Positions 12,998 through 19,816 of a stretch of 45,585 bases of DNA are shown in pieces. The stretch spans positions 1-45,585 of the IMG/VR virus record IMGVR_UViG_648276647_000019; one strand, 5' to 3'. This DNA comes from a virus (Duplodnaviria > Heunggongvirae > Uroviricota > Caudoviricetes). Made by a program: the position numbers and the translations under genes. The notes beneath the pieces were generated by a model. That model was not told where the DNA came from. It saw only the letters and a list, made by a program, of their open reading frames with translations, and ran no database searches. How positions within the stretch are numbered: the stretch's first letter is position 1; each line of letters begins with the position of its first letter.

Positions 12998-13987
12998 TTG
13001 AGAGCACTACTGACCCCTGAAATTGCCCCACGTATGGGGATCGTATTGTTCAGACCAGGTTCAGAGCTGATGCCCCTGTTTATGCAGGGGCGTGTCCTGC
13101 TGGAGCCTGAGCCGGAACGTTATTCATCTTTCGCCAGTGGTGCCGTTCCGGCGGCATCACAACCGCTGGCGGATGATCCTGTCGTTCGGGCCGTGTTCCG
13201 CAATGAGGCAGTGATCCGTCGTGCTGGTGGGGTGGAATGTCTTGAAAGCTGGTTACTTCGTGAAAAAGGCTGCCAGTGGCCCCATTCCGACTGGCACAGC
13301 GAGAACATGACCACAATGCGACACGCGCCGGGCGCAATCCGTCTGTGCTGGCACTGCGATAACCAGTTGCGCGATCAGTTCACGGAACGGCTGGAATCAA
13401 TGGCAACGGATAACTGTGCCCGCTGGGTGTTATCTGTTGTGCGTCGGGATCTCGGTTTTGATGATAGTCACGTTGTGACAATGCCGGAACTGTGCTGGTG
13501 GCTGATTCGTAATGACCTGGCGGATGCCTTACCGGAAAGTGCAGCCCGTAAGGCACTGAGATTACCGAAGCCTGTTGTGCCGTCTGTCACCCGGGAAAGT
13601 GACCTTGTGCCTTCGGTTCCTGCCACCAGCATCATCCAGGATAAGGCGAAAAAGGTGCTGGCGCTGAAAGTGGATCCGGAGTCGCCGGAGTCTTTTATGT
13701 TACGCCCAAAACGTCGCCGCTGGGTTAATGAAAAGTACACGCGCTGGGTTAAGACACAGCCGTGTGCATGTTGTGGAAAGCCCGCTGATGATCCCCACCA
13801 CCTGACAGGTCACGGTCAGGGTGGAATGGGAACAAAAGCGCATGACCTCTTTGTGTTGCCTTTGTGCAGAAACCATCACGACGAGCTACATGGGGATACC
13901 GTGGCATTTGAAGAGAAGTATGGCTCCCAGCTGGAGCTGATATTTCGTTTTATCGATCGCGCGCTGGCGATTGGTGTGCTAGCCTGA
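12998..13987 (+). CDS. DUF968-like protein with C-terminal Cys/His (HNH-like) motif
   Basis: C-terminus CACCGKPADDPHHL...CRNHHDELHG; start codon uncertain (TTG 12998 with GAGG, or ATG 13034/13070). Confidence 0.5.
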   Translation: MRALLTPEIAPRMGIVLFRPGSELMPLFMQGRVLLEPEPERYSSFASGAVPAASQPLADDPVVRAVFRNEAVIRRAGGVECLESWLLREKGCQWPHSDWHSENMTTMRHAPGAIRLCWHCDNQLRDQFTERLESMATDNCARWVLSVVRRDLGFDDSHVVTMPELCWWLIRNDLADALPESAARKALRLPKPVVPSVTRESDLVPSVPATSIIQDKAKKVLALKVDPESPESFMLRPKRRRWVNEKYTRWVKTQPCACCGKPADDPHHLTGHGQGGMGTKAHDLFVLPLCRNHHDELHGDTVAFEEKYGSQLELIFRFIDRALAIGVLA

Positions 13988-14004
13988 TTTTGTGGAGAAA
14001 ATTA

Positions 14005-14370
14005 ATGCGAGATATTCAGATGGTTCTTGAACGCTGGGGCGCGTGGGCGGCAAGTGATAGCTCTGGCGTTGACTATTCACATATAGCAGCTGGTTTTAAG
14101 GGACTTATCCCGCAGACGGGTAAAACACGAATTTCTTGTACAGATGATGATGCTCTTATCATTGAGGGCTGCCTCGCTCTCCTTAAGAAGAAAAAACCGT
14201 ACGAGCATTCTCTAATTGTGGCTCATTACCTGTATGGCATCTCGAAACGGAAGATCGCAAAGGCTCGTAAAAAAGATGAGAAATTAATACGTATCGAGAT
14301 ACAGATGGCTGAAGGGTTTATTGATGGCTGTCTTTCTATGTTGGGCGTGAAGCTTGAAATGGATAGCTAG
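14005..14370 (+). CDS. Q: Late-gene antiterminator Q
   Basis: Small basic protein in the canonical position between nin-region genes and the lysis cassette; ATG 14005 after GGAGAAA (ORF-track start at 13990 is TTG). Family call by position and resemblance. Confidence 0.65.
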   Translation: MRDIQMVLERWGAWAASDSSGVDYSHIAAGFKGLIPQTGKTRISCTDDDALIIEGCLALLKKKKPYEHSLIVAHYLYGISKRKIAKARKKDEKLIRIEIQMAEGFIDGCLSMLGVKLEMDS

Positions 14371-14406
14371 CATCGCACACGTTGGCCCCACTTGGGGGCC
14401 AAACCA

Positions 14407-14856
14407 TCACAAGTGAGGGAAGATTCTACGTAATATTGACCAGCACCTTCCGAAGGTATATAGCGAAATCATAAGGGAGGATAAGCCTAACAGTATGAAT
14501 AAGAAATCAATTGGCTGGCCCACAACAATAACATCATCTGGCAAAAACATAGCAATCAATGGGAATACGCATGCGACGATAAGTGTTATTCCTGTTGAAA
14601 GTAAGCGGTTTACTATTGTTGGCAATATGTTGTTTCGCTTAAGAGCATTGATAGCTCCTTCCTTATCGCTATCTGCGCTACTGAATATAGAAATTGCTGC
14701 CAGAACAAACCCAAACAGGATCCCTGAAATTGTCGAAAGCACACCTGCTGTTGTGAGAACGTCAGCATGTTTCATTGGCTTAAACAGTCTGGTTGCCACA
14801 TAGGTAAGTACAGCCAAGAGGACTGCCTTCCAGAGAATAGTCGCTAATTCTCTCAT
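14407..14856 (-). CDS. Small multi-pass membrane protein (about 149 aa, about four predicted TM helices), second gene of the inserted module
   Basis: Several long hydrophobic stretches; lower-GC region; 10-20 nt downstream of the 313-aa gene on the same strand; the two ATGs (14868, 14856) are ambiguous. Confidence 0.6.
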   Translation of the reverse strand: MRELATILWKAVLLAVLTYVATRLFKPMKHADVLTTAGVLSTISGILFGFVLAAISIFSSADSDKEGAINALKRNNILPTIVNRLLSTGITLIVACVFPLIAMFLPDDVIVVGQPIDFLFILLGLSSLMISLYTFGRCWSILRRIFPHL

Positions 14857-14877
14857 TGAATCCCCCATGTCGAGTTA

Positions 14878-15822
14878 TCAAGTTCTGTTAGCGAGTTCAT
14901 ACTGCGCTAAGTAGTTAGCGTTCTCAATTTTAGCAGATATCATCGCTGTTCTGATATCGGAATCAGATGGATAGCCACTTTTAACAACTATTGTTTTTGT
15001 ACCGATCAACACTTGATCAAGTAGGCTTTTCGGCGTTTTGTTTGTGGGTTCAGTGACATCAATTTTCTTGATTTTTAGTCCACCAGAACCTTTGGGAAAC
15101 AGCTCAATCAACTCCTTGATTGCGTCGGTGACTGAGGTTTTAAGATAGTTAAAACCAGCCTTTTTAGGGCGTAAACGACCTCGCATATTCAATCTTAGGT
15201 GCGATCCCCCCATCCCAACGACCATGTCAATGATGTCATTAGTCAAATCGTTCTTAATATTGTAATTAGCTTTATTGAAGTTTCTAGGCGCTGCAATCGT
15301 AAGGTCGAAACTGCGCAAGATATTGCCATCTTCGAGCAGTTCTTTCATGCTCTCATGCTTCCATATTGCTTCAAAAGTAACGTTGTTCATTTTGGTTTTG
15401 TTGTACAAAATAAACGCTAAATCATTAACTTTTGGTCCTAAATGGTTGAGAGTCATGGCTAATAAGTCTGTCTCGTAGTAATACATAAAGTATGTACGCT
15501 CTACGACAGAATCTTTATCGCTAAGGGGTATCGTACGTTCGCTGCCAGTTGTCCTGTCCTCAATAAACGGTAACAGGCAGTCCCTTCTCCAGGATACGTA
15601 GCCAAAGTAGCTCTTCTGTGTTGCGTCCTTTTCAAGTATGACGAGCTTTAAACCTCGATTTTGGGTTTCAGTTGTGTGCACCAAAGGGAAGGTGATCGGG
15701 GCGACTGCAGTAATTTGATCAAAAGCTAGCTTTGCTGTAGACGAACCATCTTTTTTGCTTCCATTACCAGTGAAAAAACCAACTCTAACTCGACGAGTTT
15801 TGTTCTTGTCTTGAGTGCTCAT
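14878..15822 (-). CDS. Hypothetical cytoplasmic protein (313 aa from ATG 15822), first gene of the inserted module; candidate defence protein
   Basis: Lys/Asn-rich, lower-GC ORF; the 415-aa ORF-track version reads through terminator hairpins and A-tracts, so the ATG at 15822 is preferred; no motif assigned. Confidence 0.6.
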   Translation of the reverse strand: MSTQDKNKTRRVRVGFFTGNGSKKDGSSTAKLAFDQITAVAPITFPLVHTTETQNRGLKLVILEKDATQKSYFGYVSWRRDCLLPFIEDRTTGSERTIPLSDKDSVVERTYFMYYYETDLLAMTLNHLGPKVNDLAFILYNKTKMNNVTFEAIWKHESMKELLEDGNILRSFDLTIAAPRNFNKANYNIKNDLTNDIIDMVVGMGGSHLRLNMRGRLRPKKAGFNYLKTSVTDAIKELIELFPKGSGGLKIKKIDVTEPTNKTPKSLLDQVLIGTKTIVVKSGYPSDSDIRTAMISAKIENANYLAQYELANRT

Positions 15823-15870
15823 TCTCGATCCGAAACAAAGTTTAACAACTGGATGAAAACTACAATAAAA

Positions 15871-15900
15871 ATTAGAGAAAATCACTAATGCGGTCCGCAA
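15871..15900 (-). promoter_or_regulatory. Candidate sigma70 promoter for the two-gene module (-35 TTGCGG, 18 nt, -10 TCTAAT on minus strand)
   Basis: Read from the reverse complement of 15871-15900; about 45 nt upstream of the ATG at 15822. Confidence 0.3.
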
Positions 15901-15948
15901 AAAATACTGTAATCTGTTAAGAATGGTCACTTCGCCACACAACTTAAA

Positions 15949-15970
15949 CCCGCCGCGAGCGGTTTTTTTC
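15949..15970 (+). terminator. Plus-strand intrinsic terminator (CCGC stem, loop, GCGG, then T7)
   Basis: ACCCGCCGCGAGCGGTTTTTTT; would stop rightward read-through from Q before the lysis genes. Confidence 0.45.
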
Positions 15971-16002
15971 ATTTCTGGCATCCCGCAGGCAGAAATGCAG
16001 GC

Positions 16003-16032
16003 AAAAAAAAAGCAGGGCGGCGCGCGCCCTGC
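16003..16032 (-). terminator. Minus-strand intrinsic terminator (8-bp GC stem GCAGGGCG/CGCCCTGC followed by U9)
   Basis: Plus strand shows A9 then the perfect-arm hairpin; on the minus strand the hairpin is followed by nine U. Confidence 0.55.
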
Positions 16033-16169
16033 AAAAATGGATGGCGCCAGGGGATGATGGATACCCCTTGACGGTTTCATGTTCTCAACGCACAAGATAG
16101 TATAAAGAGCGGAGAGTGTATACAAAGGAAGTGTTGCAGAATTACAGGAAATGATGCGTTTTGTTATTA

Positions 16170-16200
16170 TTGATATAATGCGAAATCATTTTTATAAAAA
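16170..16200 (+). promoter_or_regulatory. Promoter-like element TGATATAATGCGAAAT (extended -10), candidate late promoter
   Basis: Perfect TATAAT with upstream TG; 13-mer TATAATGCGAAAT recurs at about 19393 and in variant form at about 18497 and 14455. Confidence 0.3.
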
Positions 16201-16223
16201 ATGAAATTGCGCATTTAAGGAAT

Positions 16224-16302
16224 AAAAAAATCGGGAACCCAGGGGCTCCCGAAAAGGATTAACATGAATTCTCACAATGTTGCGGTGCCTGCCATGCATC
16301 GC
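16224..16302 (-). ncRNA. Candidate small antisense RNA (about 80 nt)
   Basis: Minus-strand TTTACA-N16-TATGAT promoter (16309-16336) followed about 80 nt later by hairpin UCGGGA/UCCCGA plus U7 (16224-16252). Confidence 0.3.
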
Positions 16303-16455
16303 GTTTTCATCATACCGAAAAAACAACCGCTGTAAACTCTGAAATATTATCCGGTGACGGATGATTAATGGTTTTTATATCAGGTTCGCTACGGCGGGCC
16401 TTTCTTATTCCACTCACCCGACATCCGGGTAATTCATCTCCCGGAAGGGGGAGTC

Positions 16456-16677
16456 ATGACAATGGACAGAATGACAACCGGTGCATCATACGGCGTGTCG
16501 GCGGCCACAACAATTTATTCTCTCCTGGATTCCTTCACCCACGATGAGTGGGCTGCAATCGGTATTCTGGGCGGGTTGTTTTTTGGTGCGCTGACGTGGA
16601 TCACCAATATTTATTTTCAGCACCGGCGACTGAAACTGGAAGAGCAGCAGAGGAATGGCGTTAAAAACGAAAGTTAA
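16456..16677 (+). CDS. Class II holin (pinholin-like, phage 21 S21 type)
   Basis: About 70 aa, two TM segments, the first Gly/Ala/Ser-rich; dual-start-like N-terminus (M-T-M); directly precedes a SAR endolysin. Confidence 0.85.
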   Translation: MTMDRMTTGASYGVSAATTIYSLLDSFTHDEWAAIGILGGLFFGALTWITNIYFQHRRLKLEEQQRNGVKNES

Positions 16678-17194
16678 ATACGGCCTGTCAGCCGCTGTTC
16701 TGGCGCTGATTGCTGCCGGTGCGTCTGCTCCTCAGATACTCGACCAGTTTCTGAATGAGAAAGAAGGTAATCACACAACGGCATACCGTGATGGTTCCGG
16801 TATATGGACCATCTGCCGTGGTACCACCATGGTGGATGGTAAGCCTGTTATTCCTGGCATGAAACTGACGAAGGAAAAATGCGACCAGGTTAATGCCATT
16901 GAGCGGGATAAGGCGCTGGCATGGGTGGAGAAAAACATCAAAGTGCCACTGACCGAACCCCAGAAAGCGGGTATTGCGTCATTCTGCTCCTATAACATTG
17001 GCCCCGGTAAGTGTTTCCCGTCGACGTTTTATAAGCGGCTGAATGCCGGTGATCGTAAGGGCGCATGCGAGGCGATTCGCTGGTGGATAAAGGACGGTGG
17101 ACGCGACTGCCGTATCCGTTCAAATAACTGCTACGGTCAGGTTGTTCGCCGTGACCAGGAGAGCGCATTAGCCTGTTGGGGTATCGACAGATAA
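16655..17194 (+). CDS. SAR endolysin (lysozyme with N-terminal signal-anchor-release domain)
   Basis: N-terminal weakly hydrophobic Ala/Gly-rich segment (LSAAVLALIAAGASAP) followed by a lysozyme-type catalytic region; overlaps holin 3' end. Confidence 0.9.
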   Translation: MALKTKVKYGLSAAVLALIAAGASAPQILDQFLNEKEGNHTTAYRDGSGIWTICRGTTMVDGKPVIPGMKLTKEKCDQVNAIERDKALAWVEKNIKVPLTEPQKAGIASFCSYNIGPGKCFPSTFYKRLNAGDRKGACEAIRWWIKDGGRDCRIRSNNCYGQVVRRDQESALACWGIDR

Positions 17195-17468: not shown

Positions 17469-18038
17469 ATGAATATGATGACCGTGCCATTCCACGGCGC
17501 AGAGCTTTATGTTGTCAACCACAACGGCGAGCCGTACACCCCAATGAAACCTATCGTTGAGGGAATGGGTATGACCTGGCAGTCTCAACACCGCAAGTTG
17601 ATGGAGAGATTTAAGACCTGCATCATCGAAATGATGATGCAGCTCCCCGGTGATACTCAGCGTCGTCTGGTTATCTGTCTTGCTTTACGTAAACTTGCAG
17701 GTTGGCTGCAAACCATCAGCCCTAACAAAGTCCGCCCTGAAATCCGCGACAAGGTAATCCAGTATCAGGAAGAGTGTGACGATGTGCTCTATGAATACTG
17801 GACTAAAGGTTTTGTCGTTAATCCCCGTCGAATGAGCGTGATGGAGGAACTCAACCAGGCATGTGCTGACATGAAAAGGGATAAAAACATCGCCAGTCTG
17901 TATGGTGCAGGGTTAAACGAATGGAAATCAGTCAAAGCGGCTCATGTATCAAAAATTCGTGCGCTGGTGGATGAGGCAAACTTGCTGATCGGCTTTGTCA
18001 TGGCGGATACAGGGAAGGGGAAAACCACCGGGACATGA
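17469..18038 (+). CDS. Phage antirepressor (Ant-type, P22 AR N-terminal domain-like)
   Basis: N-terminus MNMMTVPFHGAELYVVNHNGEPYTPMKPIVEGMGMTWQSQHRKL matches the antirepressor N-terminal pattern as I recall it. Confidence 0.7.
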   Translation: MNMMTVPFHGAELYVVNHNGEPYTPMKPIVEGMGMTWQSQHRKLMERFKTCIIEMMMQLPGDTQRRLVICLALRKLAGWLQTISPNKVRPEIRDKVIQYQEECDDVLYEYWTKGFVVNPRRMSVMEELNQACADMKRDKNIASLYGAGLNEWKSVKAAHVSKIRALVDEANLLIGFVMADTGKGKTTGT

Positions 18039-18295: not shown

Positions 18296-18725
18296 ATGGC
18301 TGGCAGAGAGATGAACCGTGTTTTATCGGTCAGATACGCTGGTGGTGAGAGAGGGGCCGGAGGGCTGCGACAGCAGGCCCGTCGGGGCGAAACGGGCAAA
18401 GAAAAGTGCAACACAAATAAAACAATAAAGTTACATGTATTTTGTAAGATATTATTCGAATTTGTTTTGAATTATCGAAATGCATATTATTTACTATAAT
18501 GCAATAATTTAATTTCCATTATTGTCATGGTGTTGCGCGAATAAAAAATCATGCCAGTTTTATTGAGTTTACAATTTTAATGTTAATTATGACAACATAA
18601 TGATAACGCAAAAGGATGAAAAAACTCACTGTACCAGAAGCGGCGGACGACAGCGACGGGCAGCTGCATGACCGCTACGTAATACCCGTTCATCAAAATC
18701 ACGGAGTATCAGAACAGGTGGCTGC

Positions 18726-19193
18726 ATGAACCGCATAACGACGTACGTAATAATATTATTGCTGGTAGTGACTGCAGCGCTGGCATGGACAACGGACCAT
18801 TACTACCGTAACGCTGTCACTTACAAAGAGCAGCGCGACAAAAACGCCGGAGAGCTGAAACTGGCGAACGCGACCATTACTGACATGCAGCAGCGTCAGC
18901 GTGATGTTGCTGCACTTGATGCCAGATACTCAAGGGAGTTAGCTGATGCGAAAGCTGAAAATGATGCTCTGCGTGCTGATGTTGCCGCTGGTCGTCGCCG
19001 GTTGCGTGTCAGGGCAGTCTGCCCCACCGTGTCCGCAGATAAAACCGCCACCGCCACCGGCGTGGCTGATGCAGCCAGCCCCGGACTTACTGACGCCGCT
19101 CAGCGGGATTATTTCATCCTCAGGGAACGAATCGCAACCAGCGACAAAATGATTCGGGGATTGCAGGCGTACATCAGGAAGGAATGTCAGTAA
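18726..19193 (+). CDS. Rz: Spanin inner-membrane subunit Rz
   Basis: Strong similarity to lambda Rz as recalled (RDKNAGELKLANATITDMQQRQRDVAALD...AENDALRADVAAGRRRL). Confidence 0.9.
   Translation: MNRITTYVIILLLVVTAALAWTTDHYYRNAVTYKEQRDKNAGELKLANATITDMQQRQRDVAALDARYSRELADAKAENDALRADVAAGRRRLRVRAVCPTVSADKTATATGVADAASPGLTDAAQRDYFILRERIATSDKMIRGLQAYIRKECQ
18946..19152 (+). CDS. Rz1: Spanin outer-membrane lipoprotein Rz1 (embedded in Rz, +1 frame)
   Basis: Lipobox LVVAGC and proline-rich core PPPPPAW, embedded in Rz as in lambda. Confidence 0.85.
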   Translation: MRKLKMMLCVLMLPLVVAGCVSGQSAPPCPQIKPPPPPAWLMQPAPDLLTPLSGIISSSGNESQPATK

Positions 19194-19228
19194 AAAAAGC
19201 AGGGCCGGCTCAGACCCTGCAGAATATA
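19194..19228 (-). terminator. Minus-strand intrinsic terminator (GCAGGG/CCCUGC stem plus U7)
   Basis: Plus strand shows A7 then hairpin; the U-tract exists only on the minus strand. A second similar element (CCCC-GGAA-GGGG) lies at 19252-19275. Confidence 0.4.
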
Positions 19229-19410
19229 CGATGAATATTAAGATAAGTTATAAAAATAAAACCCCGGAAGGGGCTCCTATGCCGTCATAAGAATAGTAAG
19301 AATGGTTCCGGGGGTATATGGATAAAAAAATTCAGAATGAAAAAAAGTAATTCTGGTTGTTATTTTGAGTGTTTATGCGAAATGCGCCTTACTATAATGC
19401 GAAATGCTGA

Positions 19411-19440
19411 ATGACAAATAAAAAAAAGGAGCCGAAACGG
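19411..19440 (-). terminator. Minus-strand intrinsic terminator (GGAGCC/GGCUCC stem plus U8)
   Basis: Plus strand A8-GGAGCCGAAACGGCUCC; U-tract on minus strand; adjacent to the TATAATGCGAAAT element. Confidence 0.4.
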
Positions 19441-19633
19441 CTCCGAAAAATAAGTCATCAAAGTTTACACGCGTATTCAATTACGGCTTTGCAGTGCTCG
19501 TCTGCGGTTAATATCGTACAGAAACATAATAATCTTCGTACACCATGAAAATGTAACCAGATACTAAACACTGGCGCATGCCATGAACATATTCTACTGG
19601 CTGAAAAGCCTTATCCATAAGGAGCAAAAAACA

Positions 19634-19816
19634 ATGCCTGAGATTAAAGATATTGTTACTGATGAACTGGTAAAAAATGCCCTTAAATCAGAGGTTGTCA
19701 CTCTGGCTGTAAAAACTCAGATTAAGAACACGCTGGAGCCTCAGATTGAGGTGGCAGTTGATAATGCACTGTCAGATATTCTGGGCGTCATGAGTACAGG
19801 TGACACCGGAGAATAA
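19634..19816 (+). CDS. Hypothetical small protein (60 aa)
   Basis: ATG 19634 after AAGGAG; ORF-track start at 19583 lacks an RBS. Confidence 0.4.
   Translation: MPEIKDIVTDELVKNALKSEVVTLAVKTQIKNTLEPQIEVAVDNALSDILGVMSTGDTGE

What the first reader, a model, noticed from the sequence alone, without database searches (positions are those of the whole stretch)
14371..16125. Lower-GC two-gene module in the Q-to-lysis moron slot: candidate anti-phage defence system
Between Q (ends 14370) and the pinholin (16456), the slot where Stx phages carry their toxin genes, sits about 1.75 kb of visibly AT-richer DNA encoding two co-oriented minus-strand genes opposite to the late operon: a 313-aa Lys/Asn-rich soluble protein (15822-14878) followed 10-20 nt later by a 149-aa membrane protein with about four TM helices (14856-14407). 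The module has a plausible own promoter (TTGCGG-N18-TCTAAT, 15871-15900) and is bracketed by a plus-strand terminator (15949-15970) and a strong minus-strand terminator (16003-16032). Soluble protein plus small multi-TM partner is the architecture of several two-gene abortive-infection systems (Kiwa-like, minimal CBASS/Pycsar), but I cannot match either protein to a family and the gene order is opposite to Kiwa as I recall it. A 10-mer GCGAAATCAT occurs at both edges (14459-14468 and 16186-16195), hinting at insertion into a former Q-proximal promoter region.
Basis: partly seen in the sequence, partly recalled or inferred. Interest (0 to 1): 0.85.

Follow-up and report, generated by a model that had tools for sequence, protein, structure and literature searches.

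The report
Divergent RexAB-like phage exclusion gene pair
The two unannotated genes wedged between the prophage's Q gene and its late promoter look like a very distant relative of phage lambda's RexA/RexB abortive-infection system. About one in nine complete E. coli genomes carries a copy, and a 2023 defence-system database does not recognise it.

Summary
The two minus-strand genes are real. A is 314 aa (15822-14878) and B is 149 aa with four TM helices (14856-14407). Both are AT-richer than the window and under strong purifying selection (dN/dS 0.05 and 0.11 against E. coli copies).

Neither protein hits Pfam, NCBIfam or PADLOC directly. A belongs by transitive homology to DUF6731 (PF20505).

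- Profile-profile comparison links DUF6731 to RexA end to end (E 1.7e-5). It links the partner family to RexB (Prob 94%, E 1.5e-7). Reversed controls fail.
- In all 18 DUF6731 phage loci that could be assessed, a small 3-4-TM gene follows directly. At least ten loci sit just downstream of a cI-like repressor, as in lambda.

The best explanation is a RexAB-type two-component abortive-infection system: a DNA-binding sensor plus a membrane effector. Kiwa, CBASS and Pycsar are not supported.

The cassette lies between the Q stop codon and a conserved candidate PR'/tR' element. That element directly abuts Q in an Stx2a phage. This is not the stx slot. No function was tested.

The parts
14878..15822 (-). 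Gene A, 314 aa: soluble RexA-like protein, a divergent member of the DUF6731 family. Predicted sensor and DNA-binding component.
14407..14856 (-). Gene B, 149 aa: RexB-like inner-membrane protein with four TM helices. Predicted effector.
   Evidence: Translation. Kyte-Doolittle segments. AF2 four-helix model, pLDDT 82. PHROG 8552. hhalign against the partners of main-clade DUF6731 genes gives Prob 98.8, E 1e-16; those partners against RexB give Prob 93.9, E 1.5e-7. The top BFVD hit is a 165-aa protein of phage Sbash. dN/dS is 0.11.
14857..14877 (-). A-B intergenic spacer of 21 nt, with a GGGGGA ribosome-binding site for B.
   Evidence: Read directly from the sequence. All homologues of B start at the equivalent Met.
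15823..15879 (-). 5' leader of gene A and right end of the inserted cassette. The promoter of the module is not resolved; it must lie here or overlap the adjacent conserved element.
   Evidence: Conserved between the window and E. coli copies. No sigma-70 consensus site was found on this strand. Homology to a cargo-free Stx2a phage starts at about 15880.
15880..15975 (+). Context: a conserved ~100-nt element, the candidate late promoter PR' with its leader and small tR'-like hairpin plus T7. It includes a -10-like TAATCT at 15908-15913 and a near-invariant GTTAAGA(A/G)TGG.
   Evidence: Conserved in the window, E. coli, Pantoea, mEp460 and PhiR40_1. Present in 359 phage records, mostly Stx-converting. 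Starts within about 5 nt of the Q stop codon in phage Stx2_EH2201, which has no cargo there. The function is inferred.
13990..14370 (+). Context: antiterminator Q (PF06530), convergent with gene B. Left border of the cassette.
   Evidence: Pfam E 7e-53. 75% identical to Q of Stx2a phage Stx2_EH2201.
14386..14402 (.). GC-rich hairpin GGCCCC-ACTT-GGGGGCC between the convergent Q and B genes. It has no T run, and its role as a terminator is uncertain.
   Evidence: Read directly from the sequence. Not reported by the terminator scan.
16003..16032 (-). Strong intrinsic terminator on the minus strand, upstream of the module. It would shield the module from leftward read-through.
   Evidence: 8-bp stem, 7 GC pairs, T9.

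Best explanation
The module is a highly diverged RexAB-type two-component abortive-infection (phage-exclusion) system carried as prophage cargo.

Gene A encodes a cytoplasmic protein with the two-domain RexA/RdgC fold. By analogy it would act as a dimeric, non-specific DNA-binding sensor that detects an infecting phage. Gene B, translated from the same transcript 21 nt downstream, encodes a four-helix inner-membrane protein homologous to RexB.

When A is triggered it would activate B. B would then open or damage the membrane, collapsing membrane potential and ATP. The infected cell stops growing and the superinfecting phage is aborted.

The cassette is inserted between the Q stop codon and the candidate late promoter PR', pointing away from the late operon. 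It can therefore be expressed in the lysogen without being part of Q-dependent late transcription.

SHOWN HERE: both genes exist and are under purifying selection. The pair is conserved across the DUF6731 family. A has the RexA fold. Both proteins have remote profile homology to RexA and RexB. The layout resembles lambda's in other family members. The insertion point is defined.

INFERRED, NOT SHOWN: DNA binding, the A-B interaction, the trigger, membrane depolarisation, and any anti-phage phenotype.

For: 2. REMOTE HOMOLOGY OF A. A 101-sequence DUF6731 alignment compared with a 24-sequence RexA alignment gives hhalign Prob 78.6%, E 1.7e-5. The match covers 253 collinear columns, A 14-294 against RexA 2-271. 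Reversed and cross controls give Prob below 1%.

3. PARTNER. B has four TM helices at about residues 4, 39, 85 and 118. RexB homologues have theirs at about 8, 49, 85 and 116. B's family against the partners of main-clade DUF6731 genes gives Prob 98.8, E 1.4e-16. Those partners against RexB give Prob 93.9, E 1.5e-7, covering TM1-TM3 and the TM2-3 loop. Reversed controls stay below 6%. The top BFVD hit for the B model is a 165-aa protein of mycobacteriophage Sbash, a phage with a proven Rex-like gp30/gp31 system (PMC6426596).

4. ARCHITECTURE. The gene order is A then B, with sizes 314 and 149 aa against 279 and 144 aa in lambda. In all 18 viral loci assessed with DUF6731 genes only 20-30% identical to A, a co-oriented 124-161-aa ORF with 2-4 hydrophobic segments (3-4 in 17 of them) follows at -26 to +16 nt.

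5. CONTEXT. At least 10 of 43 DUF6731 loci have a cI/LexA-type S24 repressor just upstream on the same strand. One example is P. putida NBRC 14671, with repressor, small ORF, DUF6731 and a 4-TM gene in that order. This is the lambda cI-rexA-rexB layout.

6. CARGO BEHAVIOUR. The same pair sits in the Q slot in E. coli and Pantoea, and between tail genes in Proteus prophages. It is present in 594 of 5426 complete E. coli genomes.

7. SELECTION. dN/dS is 0.05 for A and 0.11 for B.

Against: - No direct HMM hit. Pfam RexA (PF15969) and RexB (PF15968), and the PADLOC RexA and RexB models, score lambda's proteins at E-61 to E-110. They do not detect A or B at E <= 1.
- The close-family alignment of A against RexA is not significant (Prob ~1%). 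The signal appears only with the broad DUF6731 profile, and 78.6% is below the usual 90-95% comfort level.
- B's own family against RexB reaches only Prob 43%, so that link needs the intermediate family.
- Small four-helix membrane proteins are common and compositionally biased.
- The module is not in the immunity region, and its promoter was not identified.
- RexA in lambda also has a non-defence role, modulating the lysis-lysogeny switch (PMC11077077). Fold alone therefore does not prove defence.
- No experiment was possible.
Confidence: 0.62

Rival explanations
1. The pair is homologous to RexAB but serves the prophage's own life cycle rather than defence. A would act as a DNA-binding modulator of the lysis-lysogeny switch or of recombination (like RexA acting alone, or RdgC). 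B would act as a membrane or proteolysis modulator, as has been proposed for RexB.
For: The fold is shared with RdgC, a recombination-associated DNA-binding protein. The RexA paper reports that RexA biases the lambda switch independently of RexB, and that DNA binding is not strictly needed for exclusion (PMC11077077). Many DUF6731 loci sit next to the repressor.
Against: In the window, E. coli, Pantoea and Proteus the cassette has left the immunity region. It behaves as exchangeable cargo in slots that hold other accessory genes, which fits poorly with a core regulatory role. The strict A-B pairing is kept in all 18 assessed loci. Every experimentally tested Rex-type pair read about here excludes phages (PMC6426596, PMC12894663).
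Confidence: 0.15
2. It is a superinfection-exclusion or lysogenic-conversion module that acts at the envelope without killing the cell, for example by blocking DNA entry. B would be the active membrane protein and A an accessory factor.
For: B is a small polytopic inner-membrane protein encoded by a prophage. The module is transcribed opposite to the lytic genes, which suits lysogen expression. Its position resembles that of other prophage cargo genes.
Against: The cytoplasmic partner with a DNA-binding fold and the remote homology of B to RexB are unexplained by an entry-blocking model. Known exclusion proteins were not detected by PADLOC or Pfam.
Confidence: 0.1
3. It is a different, unrelated two-gene defence system, or a membrane toxin-antitoxin-like pair, that merely converges on the RexAB layout. 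This includes the first reader's Kiwa-like, CBASS-like or Pycsar-like ideas.
For: There is no direct sequence hit to Rex models. The profile probability for A is moderate. A soluble protein plus a small TM effector is a recurrent defence architecture.
Confidence: 0.08
4. The genes are decaying or functionless hitch-hikers in a recombination-prone junction.
For: They are annotated only as hypothetical proteins. Some E. coli copies have IS elements next to them.
Against: dN/dS is 0.05 and 0.11 with saturated synonymous change. Intact full-length pairs occur across Enterobacterales and beyond. The pair is present in 594 complete E. coli genomes.
Confidence: 0.03

Closest known systems
Phage lambda RexA/RexB exclusion system (Pfam PF15969 and PF15968; PDB 8TWQ)
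   Different: There is no direct HMM or BLAST similarity. A is 35 aa longer. The module is not next to cI or under PRM; it lies between Q and the candidate PR' with its own, unidentified promoter. No phenotype is known.
Pseudomonas putida prophage P1 RexAB-type system PP_5643/PP_5644 (Rosendahl et al. 2026, PMC12894663)
   Different: RexBpp has at least 181 residues, against 149 for B. That system lies downstream of a cI-like repressor. Whether PP_5643 is a DUF6731 protein could not be tested, because its sequence was not obtainable.
Actinobacteriophage Rex-like systems Sbash gp30/gp31 and CarolAnn gp44/gp43 (PMC6426596)
   Same: A soluble protein plus a 4-TM protein confer heterotypic phage defence. 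In Sbash the pair sits next to a tail gene, as the module does in Proteus prophages. The B model's best BFVD match is a 165-aa Sbash protein.
   Different: The hosts are Actinobacteria, and gp30 is larger (372 aa). That the BFVD hit is gp31 was not verified. No sequence comparison was made.
Pfam DUF6731 (PF20505)
   Same: A's homologues at 46-62% identity pass the gathering score. 92 of 101 proteins recovered with A's family profile are DUF6731 members.
   Different: A itself scores below E = 1 against the model. The Pfam family is described as of unknown function, and no paper in the searched library mentions it.
E. coli RdgC (PDB 2OWL)
Kiwa (KwaA/KwaB), minimal CBASS and Pycsar
   Same: Only the general theme of a soluble protein plus a TM protein.
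   Different: There are no PADLOC hits and no cyclase or DUF4868 domain. The gene order is opposite to Kiwa.

Membership tests
RexAB (lambda type) | Component 1 has the two-domain RexA/RdgC-like fold | tested here: met
RexAB (lambda type) | Component 1 matches the RexA sequence models (Pfam PF15969, PADLOC RexA) | tested here: not met
   No hit at E <= 1. The same models score lambda RexA at 1e-97 and 9e-110.
RexAB (lambda type) | Remote (profile-profile) homology of component 1 to RexA | tested here: inconclusive
   The broad DUF6731 profile against the RexA profile gives Prob 78.6%, E 1.7e-5, over 253 collinear columns, and controls give Prob below 1%. The close-family profile gives only about 1%.
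RexAB (lambda type) | Component 2 is a ~145-aa inner-membrane protein with four TM helices, encoded directly downstream of component 1 | tested here: met
   149 aa, four TM helices, 21-nt gap. TM spacing is close to that of RexB homologues.
RexAB (lambda type) | Component 2 matches the RexB sequence models (Pfam PF15968, PADLOC RexB) | tested here: not met
   No hit. Lambda RexB scores 8.5e-92 and 8.6e-61.
RexAB (lambda type) | Remote homology of component 2 to RexB | tested here: met
   The link runs through the intermediate family. B's family against the DUF6731 partners gives Prob 98.8, E 1.4e-16. The DUF6731 partners against RexB give Prob 93.9, E 1.5e-7. The direct comparison of B's family with RexB gives only Prob 43.5. 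Reversed controls stay below 6%.
RexAB (lambda type) | Located in the immunity region downstream of cI and co-transcribed with it | tested here: not met
   In the window the cI-like gene is at 4080-4754, and the module is 10 kb away between Q and the holin. The feature is met in at least 10 of 43 other DUF6731 loci.
RexAB (lambda type) | Both genes are needed to exclude phages (classically T4 rII), with membrane depolarisation, a RexA-RexB interaction and DNA binding by RexA | not testable with these tools
   Requires plaque assays, membrane-potential dyes, a two-hybrid assay and EMSA.
DUF6731 (PF20505) | Score above the Pfam gathering threshold (27 bits) | tested here: not met
   Window protein A gets no hit at E <= 1.
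DUF6731 (PF20505) | Homology to bona fide members | tested here: met
   A is 46-62% identical to proteins that pass the threshold (P0022, P0029, P0040). The profile of A's family retrieves 190 clusters, and 92 of the 101 scanned are DUF6731.
Kiwa | KwaA (4-TM) upstream of KwaB (DUF4868) | tested here: not met
   No PADLOC or Pfam hit. The gene order is reversed.
CBASS / Pycsar | Oligonucleotide or pyrimidine cyclase plus an effector | tested here: not met
   No cyclase domain and no PADLOC hit. A's fold is RexA/RdgC-like.

The most novel reading that the evidence does not exclude
DUF6731 plus its 4-TM partner is a second, previously unrecognised lineage of Rex-type systems, spread across Gammaproteobacteria. 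In Enterobacterales it has detached from the immunity operon and become a free-standing cassette that moves between prophage cargo slots (the Q-PR' junction and the tail-gene slot).

At the Q-PR' junction its promoter is interleaved back-to-back with the late promoter. Polymerase loading and Q-dependent late transcription at PR' would then shut the cassette off on induction, sparing the prophage from self-exclusion. That would be a built-in self/non-self switch that lambda achieves differently.
Probability: 0.15. Interest if true: 0.65.

Novelty: new variant of a known kind. Interest (0 to 1): 0.5.

Why it matters
RexAB was one of the first phage-exclusion systems described. How RexA senses infection and how RexB acts on the membrane are still unresolved.

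If this reading is right, a family now labelled only 'DUF6731' or 'hypothetical protein' is a second Rex lineage. It is present in about 11% of complete E. coli genomes (594 of 5426), and the 2023 PADLOC models tested here do not detect it.

That would add an unscored defence system to surveys of E. coli, Citrobacter, Yersinia, Proteus and Pseudomonas genomes. It would provide natural sequence diversity: two alleles only 46-50% identical share the same E. coli slot. That diversity could be used to map the A-B interface and the trigger specificity.

It would also define a cargo micro-slot between Q and the late promoter. This slot is distinct from the Q-dependent stx slot and holds other unknown reverse-oriented genes in phages such as mEp460 and PhiR40_1.

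Tried and rejected
- DIRECT FAMILY SEARCHES of A and B (PADLOC, Pfam, NCBIfam) gave nothing meaningful. The only matches were a CARF_HEPN fragment at E 0.011 and weak matches to TM families, all below their cut-offs. PHROGs gave families of unknown function only.
- The PDB SEQUENCE SEARCH with the A profile gave no hit at E <= 10.
- hhalign of the CLOSE-FAMILY ALIGNMENTS against single lambda RexA or RexB sequences gave no signal.
- The afdb50 fold library was unavailable.
A 12-sequence subset was used instead.
- I TRIED TO LINK the experimentally validated P. putida RexApp (PP_5643) to DUF6731. Its termini were deduced from the published primers (MHRTATFV... and ...VYNKQSRLMV). No fetched protein or locus matches them. 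Exact-DNA scans of viral and metagenome contigs were empty. Cluster look-ups gave only 'DUF6731 family protein' names. The P. putida NBRC 14671 locus that was found has a 142-aa partner, so it is not RexBpp.
- Rfam on 13900-16900 found nothing credible, only STnc410 at E 0.2 inside gene A.
- LITERATURE SEARCHES for DUF6731, PF20505 and the E. coli WP accessions returned no papers. The Tai tail-assembly-interference paper proved irrelevant.
Full report
OBSERVATION

The region holds two real, co-oriented minus-strand genes. A runs from 15822 to 14878 and encodes 314 aa. B runs from 14856 to 14407 and encodes 149 aa. They are separated by 21 nt that contain a GGGGGA ribosome-binding site.

B has four hydrophobic segments by Kyte-Doolittle analysis. 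Its AlphaFold model has four long helices (pLDDT 82).

GC is 0.42 across 14371-16125. The whole window is 0.52 and the preceding DUF968 gene is 0.54-0.59. Q itself (0.44) and the spacer up to the holin are equally AT-rich, so the low-GC tract is wider than the module.

Pfam confirms the neighbours: DUF968, a PF06530 Q antiterminator, a P21-type holin, a lysozyme and Rz.

- The promoter TTGCGG-N18-TCTAAT fails a sigma-70 scan, and its -10 is not conserved in E. coli copies.
- The 10-mer is at 14463 and 16180, with one copy inside gene B. In 8% of shuffles the two edges shared at least one 10-mer.
- The plus-strand 'terminator' is part of a conserved late-operon element described below, not a bracket of the module.

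WHAT THE GENES ARE

Direct searches are silent. PADLOC, Pfam and NCBIfam give nothing above noise, and both proteins fall in PHROGs of unknown function.

Homologues of A form a small family in Enterobacterales. Members at 62% identity or below are bona fide DUF6731 (PF20505) proteins. A profile search of 1.8 billion representative proteins found 190 clusters, and 92 of the 101 scanned are DUF6731. No paper in the searched library mentions DUF6731.

At the sequence level the close-family profile does not see RexA. The broad DUF6731 profile does align with a RexA-family profile end to end: hhalign Prob 78.6%, E 1.7e-5, 253 columns. Reversed and cross controls stay below 1%.

THE PARTNER AND THE PAIR

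Homologues of B co-occur with homologues of A in the same genera, and are adjacent to them wherever loci were examined.

I then asked whether distant DUF6731 genes keep such a partner. In all 18 IMG/VR loci assessed, a co-oriented ORF follows within -26 to +16 nt. The DUF6731 genes at these loci are only 20-30% identical to A. The following ORFs are 124-161 aa with 2-4 hydrophobic segments, 3-4 in 17 of them.

Those partners are homologous to B's family (hhalign Prob 98.8, E 1.4e-16). They are also related to RexB homologues harvested downstream of rexA genes (Prob 93.9, E 1.5e-7). That alignment covers TM1-TM3 and a conserved motif in the TM2-3 loop, and reversed controls stay below 6%.

TM helix positions are nearly superimposable: RexB homologues about 8/49/85/116, DUF6731 partners about 4/40/83/107, and B about 4/39/85/118.

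The B model's best match among viral predicted structures is a 165-aa protein of mycobacteriophage Sbash (prob 1.00, E 0.02). Sbash carries the experimentally proven Rex-like gp30/gp31 system (PMC6426596). I could not verify that this hit is gp31.

CONTEXT

At least 10 of 43 DUF6731 loci have a cI/LexA-type repressor immediately upstream on the same strand. In P. putida NBRC 14671, for example, the order is repressor, small ORF, DUF6731, 4-TM gene. This reproduces lambda's cI-rexA-rexB layout.

The window's clade has left that position.
- In E. coli it lies between Q and the lysis genes, in 594 of 5426 complete genomes at about 80% identity.
- A second allele, only 46-50% identical, occupies the same Q-adjacent position.
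- It is in the same slot in Pantoea.
- In Proteus prophages it lies between the tail chaperone and the tape-measure gene.

Both genes are under strong purifying selection, with dN/dS of 0.05 and 0.11. The window has no canonical rexAB.

THE INSERTION POINT

A ~100-nt stretch just right of the module (about 15880-15975) is conserved even where the proteins are only 45-48% identical. It occurs in 359 phage records, mostly Stx-converting phages.

In Stx2a phage Stx2_EH2201 the Q protein is 75% identical to the window's. There the element begins within about 5 nt of the Q stop codon and precedes the methylase, tRNAs and stx2A.

The element has a -10-like TAnnnT, a near-invariant GTTAAGA(A/G)TGG, and a small hairpin followed by T7. 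I infer it is the late promoter PR' with its leader and tR'. This is not shown.

The cassette is therefore inserted between Q and PR', upstream of the point where Q acts. It is not in the Q-dependent stx slot. In phages mEp460 and PhiR40_1 the same micro-slot holds other reverse-oriented genes of unknown function, so it behaves as a cargo hotspot.

MECHANISM

The best-supported reading (confidence about 0.6) is a RexAB-type abortive-infection pair. A would be a dimeric DNA-binding sensor. It would activate B, a membrane effector, causing depolarisation or leakage and growth arrest.

The rivals are less well supported:
- a Rex homologue serving the prophage's own switch;
- a non-lethal exclusion function at the envelope;
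- a convergent, unrelated system;
- decaying, functionless genes.

MEMBERSHIP VERSUS RESEMBLANCE

The module fails the sequence models that define lambda-type RexA and RexB. It also fails the immunity-region criterion. It should not be filed as a canonical RexAB member.

It meets the fold, architecture and remote-homology criteria, so it most probably works like RexAB. It represents a separate lineage, the DUF6731 type.

VERDICT

The finding is a new variant of a known kind. It is moderately interesting, mainly because it is common, unannotated and directly testable.

Noticed in passing
window 16222-16336 (minus strand): A good sigma-70-like promoter (TTTACA-16-TATGAT, 10 of 12 matches, 16336-16309) is followed about 50 nt later by a strong intrinsic terminator (16252-16231, 9-bp stem, T7). 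Together they would give an RNA of about 80 nt, antisense to the leader of the lysis operon. There is no Rfam match, and the fold z-score is only -1.6.
   Followed up: partly
window 15979-16455: The ~480-bp spacer between the conserved late-promoter element and the holin has no match in the phage collection except the holin start. It contains an extended -10 promoter-like site on the plus strand (TGATATAAT, 16171-16179). In E. coli relatives this position instead holds small ORFs and a DNA methyltransferase.
   Followed up: partly
L078 1522-2448 (phage mEp460_4F5) and L079 1963-2409 (phage PhiR40_1): Different reverse-oriented cargo genes (308 aa and 148 aa) occupy the same micro-slot between Q and the conserved element. 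Neither has a Pfam or PADLOC hit. They are possible further unknown accessory or defence genes.
   Followed up: partly
L003-L006 8001-9408 (Proteus mirabilis prophages): The same A-B pair (about 40% identical) sits between the tail-assembly chaperone (DUF6246) and the tape-measure gene, co-oriented with the tail genes. In one variant (L004) it is followed by an HTH-S24 repressor and antirepressor-like genes.
   Followed up: partly
window 17469-18038: A P22_AR_N/ORF11CD3 antirepressor-like gene is inserted inside the lysis cassette, between the lysozyme (16655-17194) and Rz (18726-19193). Very AT-rich stretches follow it (GC 0.32 at 18400-18700 and 0.37-0.39 at 19150-19750). This may be another cargo slot.
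   Followed up: no
L007 6031-6312 (Pantoea prophage): A gene with an Acb2/Tad1-hairpin domain (PF24729, an anti-defence sponge family) lies just after the lysis genes of the Pantoea prophage that carries the module. The same prophage therefore carries both defence-like and anti-defence-like cargo.
   Followed up: no
window, whole: The closest named relatives of A and B (88-93% identity) are from Citrobacter freundii and Hafnia. The best E. coli DNA match is only about 80%. The host is probably a non-E. coli member of the Enterobacteriaceae.
   Followed up: no
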